Below the pieces are notes generated by a model. That model had not been told where the DNA came from. It saw only the letters and a list, made by a program, of their open reading frames with translations, and made no database searches. Positions 49,373 through 54,590 of a DNA stretch of 64,000 bases are shown here, in pieces. Where the stretch lies: assembly GCA_963751455.1 (NCBI GenBank), contig CAVVUN010000009.1:288001-352000 (forward strand), written 5' to 3'. Position 1 is the stretch's first letter. Every line of letters begins with the position of its first letter. Source of the stretch: Nitrospirota bacterium (GTDB taxonomy: Bacteria > Nitrospirota > UBA9217). A program made the translations under genes and the position numbers.

Positions 49373-49490
49373 CATTCTATTCCGAAAAGTTTGAGGTCTT
49401 TGGAAGGAGGTGAAATCCATAAAAGAGATCTCAAGCCAAACAGGGACTATATTTGGAATTGAAAAATAAACACTTATGGGAGAAAATACA

Positions 49491-50105
49491 ATGAAAATGA
49501 ATAAAAAAGGTTTTACCCTTATCGAACTTCTGATCGTCGTGGCCATCATCGCGATTCTGGCGGCCATCGCTATTCCCCAGTTTTCTTCATACAGAATCAG
49601 AGGCTATAATGCCGCTGCCAACAGCGACATTAGAAATCTGAAACTGGCACAGGAGTCATTCAAAACCGATTGGCAAGTGTATCCCTCTACAATGGGTTGC
49701 GCTCCAAACTATCCATACGGCGGCTGCACTGGCGGTCTCGGAAACGGTGTAGTGGTAAATGGACCTGGTAATGTATCCATGAGCGTCATCCAGTATGGAA
49801 TCGTTGCTGGACAGTATCCGACAGCCGCCACGAAGCATGCTTTTGGTCTTTCAAACGGCGTACGTTCACAAATAGGTAACACCGCCGTAACTGCAGCGAA
49901 TTACATTGCACATACGGCCCATTCGCAGGGTGATACGATCTATAGTGCTGATTCTGACAATACCCAGATTAAAATGGGCGGAAAGACCGCTGGTGGAGCC
50001 CTAACCTCTTTGTCAACTAAAGTTGCCGGTGGCAACTTAGCACTTAGTCCAATTGCCTCGACAGCTGGAGATAACCTTACTGATCCCAACTATGCCAACA
50101 TGTAA
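49491..50105 (+). CDS. pilA: Type IVa major pilin
   Basis: Prepilin site KKG|FTLIELLIVVAII..IAIPQF; own promoter and terminator. Confidence 0.93.
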   Translation: MKMNKKGFTLIELLIVVAIIAILAAIAIPQFSSYRIRGYNAAANSDIRNLKLAQESFKTDWQVYPSTMGCAPNYPYGGCTGGLGNGVVVNGPGNVSMSVIQYGIVAGQYPTAATKHAFGLSNGVRSQIGNTAVTAANYIAHTAHSQGDTIYSADSDNTQIKMGGKTAGGALTSLSTKVAGGNLALSPIASTAGDNLTDPNYANM

Positions 50106-50126
50106 TTAGGTGAAATTACAACCATG

Positions 50127-50156
50127 AAAAGGCCGGGGAGATCCCGGCCTTTTTTT
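50127..50156 (+). terminator. Rho-independent terminator
   Basis: GGCCGGG-GAGAT-CCCGGCC-TTTTTTT. Confidence 0.9.
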
Positions 50157-50282
50157 AAACCAAATCAATCATCGGAGTTTAGCAGACAACGTCGCTGCTT
50201 CTTCCTTTCATCTTTACCGTGCCGTACCTTCCACGCAAATTCTAGTTGAAATTTCATTATATCGGGGGTATAACTTCATCCA

Positions 50283-51026
50283 ATGATAAAGATTGCAGGG
50301 ATTTCCAAAGAATTTAAAGACGGCGTCCGCGGCAAGAAGATCAAGGCGCTGGAACAGCTTGATCTCGAAGTGCATAAGGGAGAAGTTTTCGGTTTCCTCG
50401 GTCCGAACGGTGCTGGAAAATCAACGACGATGAAGCTCCTCATGAACCTTATTTTTCCGGATCAGGGGACTGCTCTGATTATGGGTCATGATGTCCATAA
50501 CCTGGAAACACGAAGGCATGTGGGATATCTTCCGGAAAATCCCTACTTTTACGATTATCTGACCGCCGAGGAATTGCTCTGGTTCGGAGGCAGGACATCA
50601 GGCATGTCATCCGCCTCCATAAAACAAAGAACCGATGAACTTCTGGTCAAAGTCGACCTTGATAATGTTCGGAAGCGGCAATTAAGAACATATTCAAAAG
50701 GGATGGTCCAGCGGGCAGGGCTCGCTCTGGCACTTGTTCATGACCCCGAGTTAGCGATCCTCGACGAACCCATGAGCGGGCTCGATCCCATCGGAAGAAA
50801 AATGGTTGGGGACCTCATTCTTGAGCTCAAAGCGAGGGGAAAAACGATTTTTTTCTCCTCCCATATTCTTACGGACATCGAGCGGTTTTGCGACAGGGTG
50901 GGCATCATCATCAACGGCAAGCTGCGAATGGTGGATGACTTAAAGCATCTCTTGTCTGTTTCCGCGGGTCTGGAAGAAGTCTTTATGAAGGAAGTGGAAA
51001 AAGCCGGCGGAGGTATCGGAGCATGA
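50283..51026 (+). CDS. ABC ATPase (Myxococcus PilH / Geobacter XapD-like)
   Basis: GPNGAGKST, YSKGMVQR, LDEPMSGLDP; directly after pilA. Confidence 0.9.
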   Translation: MIKIAGISKEFKDGVRGKKIKALEQLDLEVHKGEVFGFLGPNGAGKSTTMKLLMNLIFPDQGTALIMGHDVHNLETRRHVGYLPENPYFYDYLTAEELLWFGGRTSGMSSASIKQRTDELLVKVDLDNVRKRQLRTYSKGMVQRAGLALALVHDPELAILDEPMSGLDPIGRKMVGDLILELKARGKTIFFSSHILTDIERFCDRVGIIINGKLRMVDDLKHLLSVSAGLEEVFMKEVEKAGGGIGA

Positions 51027-51835
51027 GCGCACTTTGGCCTATTTCATTGATCACCTTTAAGGAGGGCATCCGGGACAAGGCAATCTTTGGAATCTTTCTG
51101 ATCGCGCTCTTTCTGCTTGTGGTAAATTCCCTGATTTGCAGCATGATTCCCCGGGAGGTCGGCAAGGTCGCGATTGATATCGCCTTATCCACTGTTTCTT
51201 TTTCCGGCCTCTTGCTCGTATTGTTTGTCGGCATTAACCTTATGGCGAAAGATCTGGACAAGCGGACGATTTACATGGTGCTATCCCGGCCGATTTCCCG
51301 GTCCCAGTATATTCTCGGTAAATTTTTCGGGATGGCCATGCTCATCGTGGCCATGATCGTATTTCTGAGTCTTTTTGCAATCTTTTCCATTTTCATGATC
51401 AAGTCGTCCTATCCGGGCTATTTCCCGATCATATCCTGGCGTCTGTTGCTGGCGGCCATTGCGTTTATCTCCCTGTCGCTCATCCTGCTTTCGTCCTTGA
51501 GTTTTCTTTTTGCTTCATTCACCTCATCGTCGTTCATTACCCTGGTTCTGACCGTGATCTCATACGTCATCGGCCATTCCGTAAATGACGTGAAAGCCCT
51601 TCTTGAATCATCACAAGTTTCCAGCATACAACCATCCGCCGTTACGATTGCCCTGGCGAAAGCAGCATACTATCTCTTTCCCAATCTATCGGTTTTCGAC
51701 ATCAAAATTCAGGTTGCCCACGCTCTTCCTCTTGCCTCGGAATATATAATCTGGGCCGTACTTTACGGACTCGTCTATACTTCGCTGGTTATTGCAGTCG
51801 CAGCCGTGATGTTTCGGAAGAAGGAATTTCCATGA
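51023..51835 (+). CDS. ABC-2 permease (PilI/XapB-like)
   Basis: Six TMs; KRTIY..LSRPISR.QYILGKF. Confidence 0.88.
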   Translation: MSALWPISLITFKEGIRDKAIFGIFLIALFLLVVNSLICSMIPREVGKVAIDIALSTVSFSGLLLVLFVGINLMAKDLDKRTIYMVLSRPISRSQYILGKFFGMAMLIVAMIVFLSLFAIFSIFMIKSSYPGYFPIISWRLLLAAIAFISLSLILLSSLSFLFASFTSSSFITLVLTVISYVIGHSVNDVKALLESSQVSSIQPSAVTIALAKAAYYLFPNLSVFDIKIQVAHALPLASEYIIWAVLYGLVYTSLVIAVAAVMFRKKEFP

Positions 51836-52698
51836 TAATGCGGAGACTGGCCCCAGCCATTCTGGTGATGCTCTTACTTGCCGCGCATTATATTTCTCTT
51901 CAAAAAATTACCGCAGCACTGAAGGCGCTTCCCAAAAATGAAAACACGGCCTATGTTGTGCCGCCGACGATTTTACGGATCACCGCACTGGAATTCCAGG
52001 GTATTATTTCCGACTATTTATTCCTTAAGTCGCTTGTGTTTATCGGCAGTACGATTGAAAGAACGGAGCGCCCGCGAGTAAAGACTTGGGAATGGAAATG
52101 GCTTTACAACATAATCGATGCCTCGTCGAGCCTCGACCCGTACTTCTTTGATCCCTATTATTTCAGCGAAGCGAATTTCACGTGGGATGCGATGATGATC
52201 GAGGATACAAATCTCCTCCTTGAACGGGGCGTCAAGTACCGTCCTTGGGATTCAACAACTCCATTTTTCATCGGCTTCAACTACTTCTACTTTCTTCGGG
52301 ACAATTTCAACGCCCGTAAATACCTGATCGAAGCTTCACGAAGACCGGATGCACAGGACCTGTATGCCGATCTTGCCGCCAAGCTTTCATCCGAGAGTAA
52401 ACGCACCGAAAATGCGATCAGTTTTCTGGAAGGATTGTTGAAGGGGACTGAGGATGAAGTCCTCCGGAAGCGGTATGAAGCGCGGATAGCGTTCCTCAGA
52501 GGCGTGCTCGAGGTGGAACATGCTGTGGAGCTCTACAAAAAAAGGTTCGCTCGGAAACCCGTTGATATCAGTGTATTGGTCCGTTCAGGTATGCTGCGTG
52601 AGGTTCCGGCGGATCCTTCCGGGGGACAATTATTCCTCGACTATGACGGGAGCGTGAAAAGCATAAGTGAATTGCAACCGGGCAGCGCGCTCCCATAA
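51832..52698 (+). CDS. Membrane-anchored TPR-like accessory protein (PilG/XapA-like)
   Basis: N-terminal TM, LDPYF, GFNYFYFL, C-terminal P..I..LV..G.L..VP.DP.G. Confidence 0.7.
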   Translation: MIMRRLAPAILVMLLLAAHYISLQKITAALKALPKNENTAYVVPPTILRITALEFQGIISDYLFLKSLVFIGSTIERTERPRVKTWEWKWLYNIIDASSSLDPYFFDPYYFSEANFTWDAMMIEDTNLLLERGVKYRPWDSTTPFFIGFNYFYFLRDNFNARKYLIEASRRPDAQDLYADLAAKLSSESKRTENAISFLEGLLKGTEDEVLRKRYEARIAFLRGVLEVEHAVELYKKRFARKPVDISVLVRSGMLREVPADPSGGQLFLDYDGSVKSISELQPGSALP

Positions 52699-52715: not shown

Positions 52716-53153
52716 TTAGTTCACCTTCCTTCTTTGTTCATGCCTGATGTCTATGCGTTTCAGTTCCTGGATGCTCTTATTGAGCTGTTCATTCTCTCTC
52801 TTCAGTTCCAGCACGGTTTTAAGCACAGTACGCCAGTTCCTGGCGTCCGTAGCCTTATCATCAGAAGGGTAGAGACGCAGGAATTCTTCGAACTTCTGTA
52901 ACGCGACTCCATAATCCCTGGTTGGATTGTCATAATAGGCGCGTGTTATAGCCGAAGCGAACAGTGCATGTGCTTGATTTTTAGAATGTGGCGACTTCTT
53001 GACGATTTTATCGTAGATCGCAATTGCTTCTGAGTACTTTCTATCCGAAGCAAAACGCTCGGCATCAGCCAGTTGAGCGTCCTGCCCGTTAAAGCCTGCG
53101 CACCCGGAAACTATACAGGCAAGCAGCGCAGCGAAAATAATCAGTCTGCTCAA
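52716..53153 (-). CDS. TPR lipoprotein with C-terminal coiled coil
   Basis: Lipobox VSGC, TPR-like helices; overlaps the stop of the GGDEF gene by 4 nt. Confidence 0.8.
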   Translation of the reverse strand: MSRLIIFAALLACIVSGCAGFNGQDAQLADAERFASDRKYSEAIAIYDKIVKKSPHSKNQAHALFASAITRAYYDNPTRDYGVALQKFEEFLRLYPSDDKATDARNWRTVLKTVLELKRENEQLNKSIQELKRIDIRHEQRRKVN

Positions 53154-54553
53154 GAATTCCTCCGCTTGTCCACTACGAAGACGCTCTTTGGTATCGTTTT
53201 GGCGTAATCCTTGAGTTCGGCTGCTATTTCGGACGCCTCAAGCGCATTGTTAAGCTTCCTGCGCTCGTTCGTTACGATCGCTATTGATATCGACATGATC
53301 GGGAAATGCATCTCAACGCCCTGCCTTGTTTTTCCGTCAATGTAGCCGCGTGAGCGGTCTTCGGCGTCATAATATTCGGGAATCTGACGGTCGAATTTAC
53401 TGATGATTTCAGCGGCTATTTCACGCATCAGATCGGGAGTTGTAATGACAACGAAGTCGTCACCGCCCACATGGCCTATGAAATCCTGTGTTGACCCTTT
53501 CAGCCTCACTGCATTCTCAATGATATGCGCTGTTTTTTTGATGACTTCGCTTCCATTGGCGTATCCGTAACGGTCGTTAAAAGCCTTGAAATTGTCGAGA
53601 TCCAGGACGCAAAAGGCGAGGGGGTGCCCCGAATCGATCCGTTTTTTGAGAACATTTTCTATCGCTATCCCCCCCGGCAGACGGGTAAGAGGACTGGCAT
53701 CGAGATACATTTCTTCGAGTTTACGAAGCCGCTTCCCCATGGCAGTGAATGACTGCGAGAGACTGCCGATTTCATCTTCTGTCTCGATCCTGGCGTCGAA
53801 GTCGAAATTTCCCTCGGAAATGTGCTCAGTCCCGATTTTTAATTTATTGATCGAGGATGAGATGTGGTGAGTAATCAGCAGAGCGGCCAGCACCCCTGCA
53901 ATGATGCTGAAAACGCACAGCAGCGCGGTCGTAACAAAAGCTGTTCCGCCAATGCTGCTGATCCGTTTCATTTTTCTGTCTTGCGCGGCCTTTGCAATCG
54001 CAGAAGCATTCCTCAGCTCCTCGATCAGTTTTTGTTGTATGTTATTCATGGAGCTGTTCGATAAACTCTCGGCCTTACTGCTCTTTTTCGAACGCACCAA
54101 TTGAACTTCCTGATCGAAGAGCTCCGTATATTTATCGTGCAGTGCCTTGATGCTTTCTACCGGCAAGCTATTCTTATCAGACAGCTTTTTCAAAGAGGTG
54201 AGCCATATTTGAAATTCGTCCCCCCGTTTTGCAAAGAGCGCCTTCATATCGTCGCTTTTAAGGATCAGATAACGTTTTTCGAAGTTGTCCTGCGCCAAGG
54301 CTGCTTCTATCATCTGCTCTGCGGCTTTTTGGGCAAGGATATCACCTTTGACAATGCTTCTGTTAAGAATGTTAATACGCTGGATATTGACAAGGGCGTA
54401 CACGACAACGATAACCGTCAGCACGACAAGAATCATATATCCGAGCAGCATCTTACTGACGATGTTCAGTTTCCCGAAAAGCCTGGCGGGCACTAGTCTG
54501 TTCAGGATATCGGCAGGGAGAACGAGATTGATTTTAGATAGCTGAAAGCTCAC
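53150..54553 (-). CDS. Membrane sensor-HAMP-GGDEF dinucleotide cyclase with Hypr (Asp-to-Ser) signature
   Basis: Two TMs around a helical periplasmic domain, HAMP (DEIG.L...F..M), DLDNFKAFND.YG...GS, GGDDF. Confidence 0.88.
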   Translation of the reverse strand: MSFQLSKINLVLPADILNRLVPARLFGKLNIVSKMLLGYMILVVLTVIVVVYALVNIQRINILNRSIVKGDILAQKAAEQMIEAALAQDNFEKRYLILKSDDMKALFAKRGDEFQIWLTSLKKLSDKNSLPVESIKALHDKYTELFDQEVQLVRSKKSSKAESLSNSSMNNIQQKLIEELRNASAIAKAAQDRKMKRISSIGGTAFVTTALLCVFSIIAGVLAALLITHHISSSINKLKIGTEHISEGNFDFDARIETEDEIGSLSQSFTAMGKRLRKLEEMYLDASPLTRLPGGIAIENVLKKRIDSGHPLAFCVLDLDNFKAFNDRYGYANGSEVIKKTAHIIENAVRLKGSTQDFIGHVGGDDFVVITTPDLMREIAAEIISKFDRQIPEYYDAEDRSRGYIDGKTRQGVEMHFPIMSISIAIVTNERRKLNNALEASEIAAELKDYAKTIPKSVFVVDKRRNS

Positions 54554-54590
54554 GGCCTCAGGTTAACAAATAATGATGGTATTGTCAATA

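What the first reader, a model, noticed from the sequence alone, without database searches (positions are those of the whole stretch)
52716..54553. Predicted 3',3'-cGAMP synthase (Hypr GGDEF) with partner lipoprotein abutting the pilin locus
Seen: DLDNFKAFNDRYGYANGSEVI; the residue nine positions after the conserved Asn is Ser (codon AGC, 53551-53549) rather than Asp, while the catalytic DLD and GGDDF motifs are intact. Established: this position (PleD D344) reads the guanine base, and Asp-to-Ser defines Hypr GGDEF enzymes such as Geobacter GacA, which make 3',3'-cGAMP linked to extracellular electron transfer. From memory, a membrane HAMP-type paralogue (GacB) also exists. Inference: a periplasm-sensing cGAMP module (TM-sensor-HAMP-GGDEF plus an overlapping TPR lipoprotein gene) converging on a Geobacter-like pilA-xap locus. 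If the host is Nitrospirota, this would extend cGAMP signalling beyond the lineages where it is best described.
Basis: partly seen in the sequence, partly recalled or inferred. Interest (0 to 1): 0.78.

Follow-up and report, generated by a model that had tools for sequence, protein, structure and literature searches.

The report
Lipoprotein-gated cGAMP synthase in Nitrospirota
A membrane signalling enzyme, a full-length relative of a Geobacter enzyme that makes the messenger cGAMP, is encoded beside a small lipoprotein that travels with it across two phyla, is predicted to clamp onto the enzyme's outer sensor and likely switches it on; the same genome carries RNA switches and a degrading enzyme predicted to handle cGAMP.

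Summary
Observation confirmed: Ser335 (AGC, 53551-53549) occupies the PleD D344 position, with GGDDF. The protein is not GacA. It is a full-length homologue (39% identity over 445 columns) of GSU1937, Geobacter's second, experimentally supported cGAMP synthase; Ser is kept in 120 of 120 closest relatives. The overlapping lipoprotein belongs to the system. It follows 47 of 58 membrane-type cyclases, GSU1937 included, and 0 of 43 cytoplasmic GGDDF relatives. The sensor's best PDB match is QseE (E 6.8e-4). A 2:2 model sets the lipoprotein's C-terminal helix on the sensor tip as in QseG-QseE (0.72, best control 0.00; possibly recalled from that structure). The host is most likely Nitrospirota. Its genome also holds three A20 GEMM-I riboswitches and an RxxQ HD-GYP protein, both family-wide, so a writer-reader-eraser circuit is predicted. 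The pilin adjacency is family-level synteny (30 of 33 genomes); in the GSU1937 genome the loci lie 472 kb apart. Product, binding and activation are untested. This scan noted the GSU1937 likeness and the QseG/QseE idea before on other DNA. Testable payoff: the missing lipoprotein may explain why full-length GSU1937 was inactive in E. coli.

The parts
53150..54553 (-). TM-four-helix sensor-TM-HAMP-GGDDF dinucleotide cyclase, 467 aa (GTG start), GSU1937 type
54380..54457 (-). TM1 (about residues 33-58)
   Evidence: hydropathy
53945..54379 (-). all-helical periplasmic sensor (about residues 59-203), QseE-like four-helix bundle
54227..54298 (-). sensor tip, residues 86-109 (Q88, K93, R94, I97, L98); predicted lipoprotein-binding saddle
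53867..53944 (-). TM2 (about residues 204-229)
53723..53878 (-). HAMP domain (226-277)
   Evidence: Pfam PF00672
53159..53701 (-). GGDDF catalytic domain (about 285-465); D318, N326, non-Arg cross-dimer G295, no RxxD I-site (S354xxD357)
53549..53551 (-). Ser335, Hypr signature (PleD D344 position)
53453..53467 (-). GGDDF motif (363-367)
52716..53153 (-). partner lipoprotein, 145 aa (TTG start overlapping the cyclase stop): two TPR hairpins plus a 44-residue C-terminal helix
53100..53102 (-). lipobox Cys18 (VSGC), in register with the Cys of homologues
52728..52775 (-). conserved C-terminal helix motif (mature residues 110-125: L114, K115, I117, D118, E122, R124); predicted sensor-binding segment
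54591..56612 (-). class A PBP (PBP1A) gene 37 bases upstream, same strand; family-level neighbour, probable co-transcription (inferred)
49476..52698 (+). convergent type IV pilin, ABC ATPase, ABC permease and uncharacterised gene (pilA/xapBCD-like; the xap labels are recalled); neighbour only, not shown to be part of the system

Best explanation
This is a GSU1937-type membrane dinucleotide cyclase (Ser at the base-reading site, GGDDF motif) that likely makes 3',3'-cGAMP along with some c-di-GMP, and its co-encoded TPR/coiled-coil lipoprotein is predicted to bind the periplasmic four-helix sensor as a 2:2 complex and likely activates it in the manner of QseG on QseE. [quoted passage not shown] Shown: sequence features, homology, gene linkage, conservation.
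For: 39% identity over 445 columns to the gene bounded by the four published GSU1937 deletion primers. Both lie in one 51-row clade of membrane GGDDF cyclases, SH-aLRT 98, quick tree. GSU1937 deletion lowered a cGAMP reporter by about 25% on fumarate and 70% on Fe(III) citrate, and one GGDDF fusion made cGAMP (PMC8835794). Ser335 in 97 of 101 aligned members, D318/D365/D366 in 101 of 101. Lipoprotein gene behind 47 of 58 membrane-type and 0 of 43 cytoplasmic GGDDF loci (19 of the 47 built the profile). Conversely, 30 of the 30 best lipoprotein loci in the Geobacter family have a Ser-GGDDF cyclase directly upstream. A sensor-only profile finds QseE (9M08) as best PDB match, E 6.8e-4, positions 4-196 of 205, and puts QseE V77/L78 and R73/Q74 on I97/L98 and K93/R94. 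Complex model: 0.72 against best of 3 controls 0.00; that mark was reached by 116 of 157 solved complexes and 2 of 215 mismatched pairs, counts that hold only roughly here; runs share at least 97% of contacts; partner pLDDT at least 84. The closest predicted contacts include L114 on R94/I97/L98, like QseG L209 on V77/L78. L114 90 of 91, acidic 118 91 of 91, basic 124 75 of 91, the spacing of QseG L209/E213/R219. A20 GEMM-I in 3 of 6 hits here and in 43 of 53 family genomes, reversed-pattern control 10 of 301. RxxQ HD-GYP: 1 of 17 typed here, orthologue in 42 of 53 relatives, Gln in 28 of 30 typed.
Against: No enzyme, binding or expression data for this protein. The GSU1937 fusion also made c-di-GMP at GacA-like levels, and 3 of 4 fusions were inactive. 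A D-to-S change left GSU3350 a pure diguanylate cyclase. The complex score may be recalled from the solved QseG-QseE structure: it shows the likeness, not that this copy binds. QseE R70, required for QseG binding, aligns with N90 here (Arg in 39 of 101). 11 of 58 membrane-type cyclases have no adjacent lipoprotein, and 6 of 10 second-copy lipoproteins in the Geobacter family have no detectable sensor beside them. Activation rather than inhibition rests only on the QseG analogy. The A20 aptamers resemble Vc2 G20A, which binds both ligands (53 and 120 nM), and 25 of 29 best-scoring GEMM-I hits in relatives are G20. The RxxQ protein has HH(L/Q/R/M)K in place of the usual HHE (consensus recalled). 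Some families with the Ser cyclase show no A20 pattern (f14 0/3, f25 0/9, f4 0/5).
Confidence: 0.6

Rival explanations
1. The module is a lipoprotein-coupled diguanylate cyclase (or a weak enzyme) whose main product in the cell is c-di-GMP; the Ser relaxes but does not switch specificity, and the A20 riboswitches are read by c-di-GMP.
For: The GSU1937 F4 fusion made c-di-GMP comparably to GacA. GSU3350 D-to-S stayed a diguanylate cyclase. The general-base Glu is Asp. Vc2 G20A and Cbe 1-2 bind c-di-GMP as well as or better than cGAMP. Asn replaces Ser in 8 of 63 membrane-type rows.
Against: GSU1937 deletion lowers a cGAMP-selective reporter in vivo. Ser is fixed in 120 of 120 close homologues while cytoplasmic GGDDF relatives keep Asp (44 of 48). 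The cross-dimer position is not Arg. A conserved RxxQ HD-GYP co-occurs.
Confidence: 0.2
2. The lipoprotein is not an activator: it inhibits or merely scaffolds the cyclase, or its real partner is the upstream PBP1A (LpoP/CpoB-like TPR lipoprotein).
For: Its fold matches are generic TPR proteins, among them YbgF/CpoB, LpoP and BamD (Z about 12). PBP1A lies directly upstream in this family. A structure model gives no sign of regulation.
Against: A PBP1A match was found in 0 of 20 loci from other families of the phylum, and none was noted among the ORFs of the one Geobacter locus listed, while the cyclase link persists. The conserved lipoprotein residues are the predicted sensor interface. Full-length GSU1937 without its neighbour was inactive in E. 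coli, as expected for a missing activator, though poor expression is an equal explanation.
Confidence: 0.13
3. The module is a dedicated pilus or surface sensor: it reads the state of the neighbouring pilin/xap machinery and drives electron-transfer genes through cGAMP.
For: Convergent adjacency within 5 kb in 30 of 33 family genomes with both genes, within 28 kb in all 33. Geobacter pilA-C and xap transposon insertions lower cGAMP and pilB insertions raise it. 50 stop-to-stop frames with 4 or more CxxCH in this genome.
Against: Convergent genes share no transcript. The pilin and the two xap-like membrane/uncharacterised genes matched 0 of 20 loci from other families (only generic ABC ATPase hits). 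472 kb separate the loci in the GSU1937 genome. The three A20 riboswitches here precede OmpA, DUF11 and PEGA genes. Only 1 of the first downstream ORFs at 34 loci examined carried CxxCH motifs.
Confidence: 0.07

Closest known systems
GSU1937 of Geobacter sulfurreducens (Hypr GGDDF; PMC8835794)
   Same: Full-length homologue (39%/445 columns): TM-sensor-TM-HAMP-GGDDF, Ser at the base-reading site, no EAL or HD-GYP, no I-site Arg, same clade, and the same lipoprotein gene overlapping its stop.
   Different: A Nitrospirota subclade (SH-aLRT 97), not a recent Geobacter transfer. LPGG instead of LPGN, Gly-Ser instead of Ala-Ser, longer sensor, shorter lipoprotein (128 vs 158 mature residues). Flanked by PBP1A and pilin genes rather than the Geobacter neighbours. 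The paper reports homologues only 'within Deltaproteobacteria' and, in the parts read, does not mention the lipoprotein.
QseE-QseG(-QseF) of Enterobacteria (PDB 9M08; PMC12691602)
   Same: Four-helix periplasmic sensor detectable by profile (E 6.8e-4), HAMP, lipoprotein gene directly downstream, helical N-terminal body plus long C-terminal helix, predicted 2:2 straddling of the sensor tip with matching hydrophobic contacts.
   Different: Output is a dinucleotide cyclase, not a histidine kinase; no QseF-like regulator gene. The lipoprotein gave no sequence or fold match to QseG in the rows shown. QseE R70 is not conserved. The N-terminal tether is about 5 residues against about 20.
GacA / Gmet_1914 (founding Hypr GGDEF; PMC6456294)
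   Same: Ser at the Watson-Crick site, Asn sugar-edge contact, central Asp, non-Arg cross-dimer residue.
   Different: GacA is cytoplasmic with a receiver domain, GGDEF with the Glu general base, and an I-site; this protein belongs to the separate GGDDF subfamily.
YfiBNR / TpbB (recalled, not tested beyond fold hits to YfiN GGDEF)
   Same: Outer-membrane lipoprotein controlling an inner-membrane HAMP-GGDEF enzyme.
   Different: YfiB acts through a periplasmic repressor and the product is c-di-GMP (recalled). Here there are two genes, a TPR lipoprotein and predicted direct binding.

Membership tests
Hypr GGDEF | Ser/Thr at PleD D344 | tested here: met
   Ser335; definition
Hypr GGDEF | Asp at the third motif position (Goldilocks rule) | tested here: met
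   D365, 101 of 101
Hypr GGDEF (GacA type) | Glu general base at the fourth motif position | tested here: not met
   D366, 101 of 101; tolerated in GSU1937
Hypr GGDEF (GacA type) | receiver domain and RxxD I-site | tested here: not met
   TM-HAMP architecture; S354xxD357
Hypr GGDEF | non-Arg cross-dimer residue | tested here: met
   G295 (Asn 55, Gly 46 of 101); register assigned by motif, and also non-Arg in Asp-type GGDDF relatives
Hypr GGDEF | makes 3',3'-cGAMP | not testable with these tools
   needs LC-MS or biosensor
GSU1937-type Hypr GGDDF | transmembrane HAMP architecture, Ser, GGDDF, no EAL/HD-GYP domain | tested here: met
GSU1937-type Hypr GGDDF | full-length homology and shared clade with GSU1937 | tested here: met
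   39%/445 columns, E 8e-105; 51-row clade SH-aLRT 98, quick tree, 13 of 111 rows left out by name as near-duplicates or cut
QseE-QseG | four-helix sensor homologous to QseE | tested here: met
   best PDB hit of the sensor-only profile, E 6.8e-4, modest
QseE-QseG | lipoprotein gene directly behind the sensor gene | tested here: met
   47 of 58 loci; 30 of 30 in the reverse test
QseE-QseG | lipoprotein homologous to QseG | tested here: inconclusive
   interface residue spacing matches the paper's numbers; QseG not among rows shown
QseE-QseG | C-terminal helices straddle the sensor dimer | tested here: met
   model only: 0.72 vs best control 0.00, may be recalled from 9M08
QseE-QseG | histidine kinase output and QseF regulator | tested here: not met
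   output is GGDDF; no regulator among neighbouring ORFs
QseE-QseG | outer-membrane anchoring and activation | not testable with these tools
   lipobox Cys18, +2 Ala; localisation and sign of regulation inferred
GEMM-Ib riboswitch | A at Vc2 position 20 in a GEMM-I fold | tested here: met
   3 of 6 in this genome; a terminator overlaps the aptamer 3' strand in the one folded
GEMM-Ib riboswitch | selective cGAMP binding | not testable with these tools
   A20 aptamers can be bispecific
cGAMP phosphodiesterase (PmxA-type) | Rxx(Q/N) motif in an HD-GYP domain | tested here: met
   RSYQ in G000:C1:625102-626271; Gln in 28 of 30
cGAMP phosphodiesterase (PmxA-type) | cGAMP hydrolysis | not testable with these tools
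   motif predicted activity in 5 of 6 screened candidates, 3 selective

The most novel reading that the evidence does not exclude
GSU1937-type cyclases are the cGAMP-output version of the QseG-QseE envelope-spanning switch: a short outer-membrane lipoprotein must physically reach the inner-membrane sensor, so cGAMP reports outer-to-inner membrane distance or envelope strain (for example from surface contact or pilus load). This would be the first known input for a membrane cGAMP synthase, conserved from Geobacter to Nitrospirota, the latter carrying its own full writer-reader-eraser cGAMP circuit.
Probability: 0.35. Interest if true: 0.82.

Novelty: new variant of a known kind. Interest (0 to 1): 0.65.

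Why it matters
GSU1937 is the main source of cGAMP when Geobacter respires Fe(III) citrate, yet its input is unknown and the full-length enzyme was inactive in E. coli (PMC8835794). A conserved partner lipoprotein with a predicted QseG-like interface gives a concrete, cheap test: co-express or delete the neighbour. It would also join envelope-spanning lipoprotein control to cyclic-dinucleotide signalling. The co-occurring A20 riboswitches and RxxQ phosphodiesterase suggest that a largely uncultured Nitrospirota family uses cGAMP to control surface and adhesin genes, outside the lineages named in the papers read.

Tried and rejected
GacA/GacB as closest relative: rejected by architecture, motif and tree. 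Geobacter-like pilin linkage: rejected as a general feature. Primer scans for GSU1937 in whole collections gave one chance match in metagenomes and none in genomes; the locus was found later in a family search. No viral relative with a distant member as query. QseG was not recovered by a lipoprotein profile (60 of 101 rows shown), a C-terminal helix profile (9 rows), Foldseek (no match at E<=0.001) or VIA-align (top 50 generic TPR). These absences do not show that the folds differ. The full-length model was of middling quality (pLDDT 74, pTM 0.40) and its fold search listed only GGDEF domains, so the Ser register rests on sequence alignment and DSSP (helix 331-352). The promoter/terminator scan was at chance level (6 vs 4.5; 5 vs 5.4). 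A kinase-linked version of the sensor-lipoprotein pair, reported in an earlier scan note, was not seen in 10 second-copy loci or in this genome. The search of 50%-identity representatives was never run, so the full taxonomic range is not known. Hallberg 2016 (PMC4763787) and Kellenberger 2015 (PMC4418906) are not held; their supplementary taxon lists may already include Nitrospirae.
Full report
Observation. The two reading frames, their 4-base overlap, the DLDNFKAFNDRYGYANGSEVI stretch, the Ser codon at 53551-53549 and GGDDF at 53467-53453 are as described. Alignments to solved diguanylate cyclases place Ser335 on the guanine-reading Asp, the substitution that defines Hypr enzymes (PMC6456294 section 12; PMC7288161 passage). 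It is fixed in the 120 best homologues and rare in this genome: 2 Ser, 1 Asn and 38 Asp among 41 typed GGDEF domains. GGDDF is a variant motif: the fourth residue is the proposed general base, normally Glu.

What the enzyme is. PMC8835794 (parts 1-5 of 6 and the supplement read) describes GSU1937, a transmembrane HAMP protein with the Hypr Ser and GGDDF. Its deletion lowers a cGAMP reporter by about 25% on fumarate and 70% on Fe(III) citrate. Full-length protein and 3 fusions were inactive in E. coli; a fourth fusion made cGAMP and c-di-GMP. I located the gene through the paper's deletion primers: 1 of 87 genomes in the family of a Geobacter record matched, and all four primers match exactly around a 436-codon gene in handle G324. 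The window protein aligns with it at 39% over 445 columns, E 8e-105. A quick maximum-likelihood tree of 104 domains (SH-aLRT only; the careful search did not finish; 13 of 111 collected rows were left out by name as near-duplicates or cut, and 6 canonical domains were added as outgroup) puts both in a 51-row clade of membrane GGDDF cyclases (98). The window protein lies in a mostly Nitrospirota subclade (97), apart from Asp-type cytoplasmic GGDDF proteins and far from GacA-like enzymes. Among all collected rows, membrane-type proteins have Ser 55 and Asn 8 of 63 (one row duplicated); the others have Asp 44, Ser 3 and Asn 1 of 48. Catalytic D318, D365 and D366 are invariant in 101 aligned members, the cross-dimer position is Gly or Asn rather than Arg, and there is no I-site Arg. 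'GacB' in the papers seen is the Myxococcus enzyme.

Host. The genome is 5.72 Mb, 100% complete, 5.37% contaminated. Homologues at 69-71% identity are named 'Nitrospirota bacterium' by NCBI, and same-phylum handles intermix with titled Nitrospirota records in the tree. The cyclase is found in 47 of 53 genomes of the family. Of the 139 of 301 phylum hits at that cut-off, many weaker ones are shorter proteins, and those typed were Asp-type receiver or other cytoplasmic relatives.

The lipoprotein is part of the system. It folds with high confidence (pLDDT 96) as two TPR hairpins and a 44-residue C-terminal helix; Atlas neighbours are unnamed TPR lipoproteins of Nitrospirota, Thermodesulfobacteriota and Methylomirabilota. 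A profile of it finds a gene directly behind 47 of 58 membrane-type cyclases with enough flank (4 more too short; 19 of the 47 built the profile) and behind 0 of 43 cytoplasmic ones. These include records titled Geobacteraceae, Desulfuromonadaceae and Syntrophales and GSU1937 itself (E 1e-20). In the reverse test it is in 83 of 87 genomes of the Geobacter family, and the 30 best loci all have a Ser-GGDDF cyclase upstream. Two genomes carry a second copy in one frame with a sensor and, in the one translated, a degenerate cyclase. Against: 11 membrane-type cyclases lack it, and 6 of 10 second copies have no sensor beside them.

How it likely works. A profile of the TM1-sensor-TM2 region alone (61 sequences) has QseE from the QseG-QseE structure 9M08 as best of 177,635 PDB sequences (E 6.8e-4, positions 4-196 of 205; the isolated QseE sensor at E 0.15). 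PMC12691602 (parts 1-3 of 8 and passages read) shows an outer-membrane lipoprotein dimer whose C-terminal helices straddle the sensor dimer and activate it, through QseG L209/E213/R219 and QseE V77/L78/R70/R73. The alignment maps V77/L78 to I97/L98 and R73/Q74 to K93/R94; R70 falls on N90 and is not conserved. The lipoprotein's most conserved residues, L114 (90 of 91), D/E118 (91 of 91) and K/R124 (75 of 91), have the QseG spacing. A 2:2 model scored 0.72 against 0.00 for the best of 3 controls. That mark was reached by 116 of 157 solved complexes and 2 of 215 mismatched pairs, counts that hold only roughly for this job; runs share at least 97% of contacts, partner pLDDT is at least 84, and lipoprotein 110-125 packs on sensor 86-109. 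Because a like complex is solved, the pass may be from memory and shows likeness rather than binding. QseG itself was not recovered by sequence or fold searches with the lipoprotein (see Tried and rejected), so homology of the two lipoproteins is open. Outer-membrane anchoring and activation are inferred. A hand estimate at 1.5 A per helical residue gives about 15 nm for the whole span, against 16.9 nm plus a 20-residue loop for QseG-QseE; this is the basis of the speculative ruler reading.

Readers and eraser. The genome has 6 GEMM-I hits; 3 have A at Vc2 position 20, the GEMM-Ib signature (PMC6140456 passages). In the one folded, a strong terminator overlaps the aptamer's 3' strand, an ON-switch layout. 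They precede an OmpA lipoprotein with a DUF11 surface protein and a PEGA operon. GEMM-I occurs in 52 of 53 family genomes. An A20 pattern occurs in 43 of 53 family genomes and 70 of 301 phylum genomes, with 10 of 301 for the reversed control and 2 of 60, 0 of 12 and 2 of 30 in three large families. Kin are not independent, and some families with the cyclase lack the pattern. The best-scoring aptamer per genome is G20 in 25 of 29, and A20 aptamers can be bispecific. One of 17 typed HD-GYP domains has RxxQ, the PmxA signature (bioRxiv 10.1101/600031, passages and part 3 read). Its orthologue is in 42 of 53 relatives with Gln in 28 of 30 typed, but its metal-binding motif is atypical.

Pilin locus. 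The convergent arrangement is kept within 5 kb in 30 of 33 family genomes with both genes, and PBP1A is usually upstream. Neither was seen in 20 loci from other families of the phylum. In G324 the homologue of the last xap-like gene lies 472 kb from GSU1937. Geobacter pil and xap mutants do change cGAMP levels, so a functional link is possible but not shown.

What is in print. Searches: Hypr/cGAMP/GacB, GSU1937 (2 papers listed), GEMM-Ib, QseG structure, GSU1938 + Geobacter (0 papers; that tag is my guess from gene order), Nitrospirota + cGAMP/GGDEF/riboswitch (15 of 61 listed, none on this by listing), QseG + GGDEF (10 of 188 listed, none on this by listing). The QseG-QseE paper has no occurrence of GGDEF, diguanylate, Deltaproteo or Desulfo. 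PMC6456294 was read in sections 8 and 11-14 and passages; PMC12285248 in passages. The 2016 and 2015 PNAS papers were not available, and their supplements may list Nitrospirae. Earlier scan notes on other genomes reached the GSU1937 and QseG/QseE readings; I had reached both before looking, and could not confirm the kinase-linked version one of them reports.

Verdict. A member of the GSU1937-type Hypr GGDDF clade, working like QseG-QseE at its input but not a member of that kinase system. New variant of a known kind. Rough odds: cGAMP among the products 0.75; lipoprotein binds the sensor 0.8; whole mechanism with activation 0.6. Interest 0.65.

Noticed in passing
G000:C15:613967-615121 (+) (L042:5968-7125): A second Ser-type enzyme, GAF-GGDEF with the GacA-like Tyr-Arg cross-dimer pair but a GGEEF motif. 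Found in 52 of 53 family genomes; Ser + GGEEF in 30 of 30 typed. PMC6456294 found Ser/GGEEF inactive and absent in nature, so this is either a conserved pseudo-enzyme or an exception to that rule.
   Followed up: partly
L297:1937-3949 and L298:1983-3896 (G334, G335): One open frame joins a sensor, a degenerate cyclase (GGDSF, no DLDNFK in the one translated), a hydrophobic segment with lipobox and the lipoprotein domain: a natural fusion of the two partners, or two in-frame genes that lost the stop.
   Followed up: partly
L019, L020, L036, L047, L055, L102, L112: Paralogues with Asn at the specificity site; in this family (L019, L020, L036) their lipoproteins have much longer coiled coils, about 230 residues. 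Product unknown.
   Followed up: no
G000:C12:560339-560725 (-) and 536124-536249 (-): Three A20 GEMM-I riboswitches (two in tandem) before an OmpA lipoprotein plus a 2277-codon DUF11 surface protein, and before a lipoprotein/PEGA operon. Most A20 aptamers in the phylum also read GCAGAGC where the consensus has GCAAAGC.
   Followed up: partly
G000:C12:592676-637724: Cluster of very large multiheme cytochrome frames (34, 32 and 21 CxxCH motifs), about 30 kb from the A20 riboswitches; nifH- and nrfA-like motifs elsewhere in the genome.
   Followed up: no
L030, L061 (family f8): These same-phylum copies nest inside the Geobacteraceae clade (SH-aLRT 93-99), suggesting a transfer; not tested formally.
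   Followed up: no
L117, L118: Cytoplasmic GGDDF proteins with Ser at the specificity site, one from an Actinomycetota record: candidate Hypr enzymes in a further phylum.
   Followed up: no
G000:C12:152282-155063 (+): A G20 GEMM-I riboswitch directly upstream of an 866-codon HD-GYP gene: a likely c-di-GMP feedback loop.
   Followed up: no
window 54554-54590: The 37-base gap between PBP1A and the cyclase holds an exact TTGACA (54588-54583, - strand); the consensus scan did not call a promoter there.
   Followed up: no
G000:C10:29853-34654 and C15:1598988-1604493: A near-identical chemotaxis block (CheW, MCP and neighbours) occurs on two contigs, one at a contig end; possible assembly duplicate in a genome with 5.37% contamination.
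   Followed up: no
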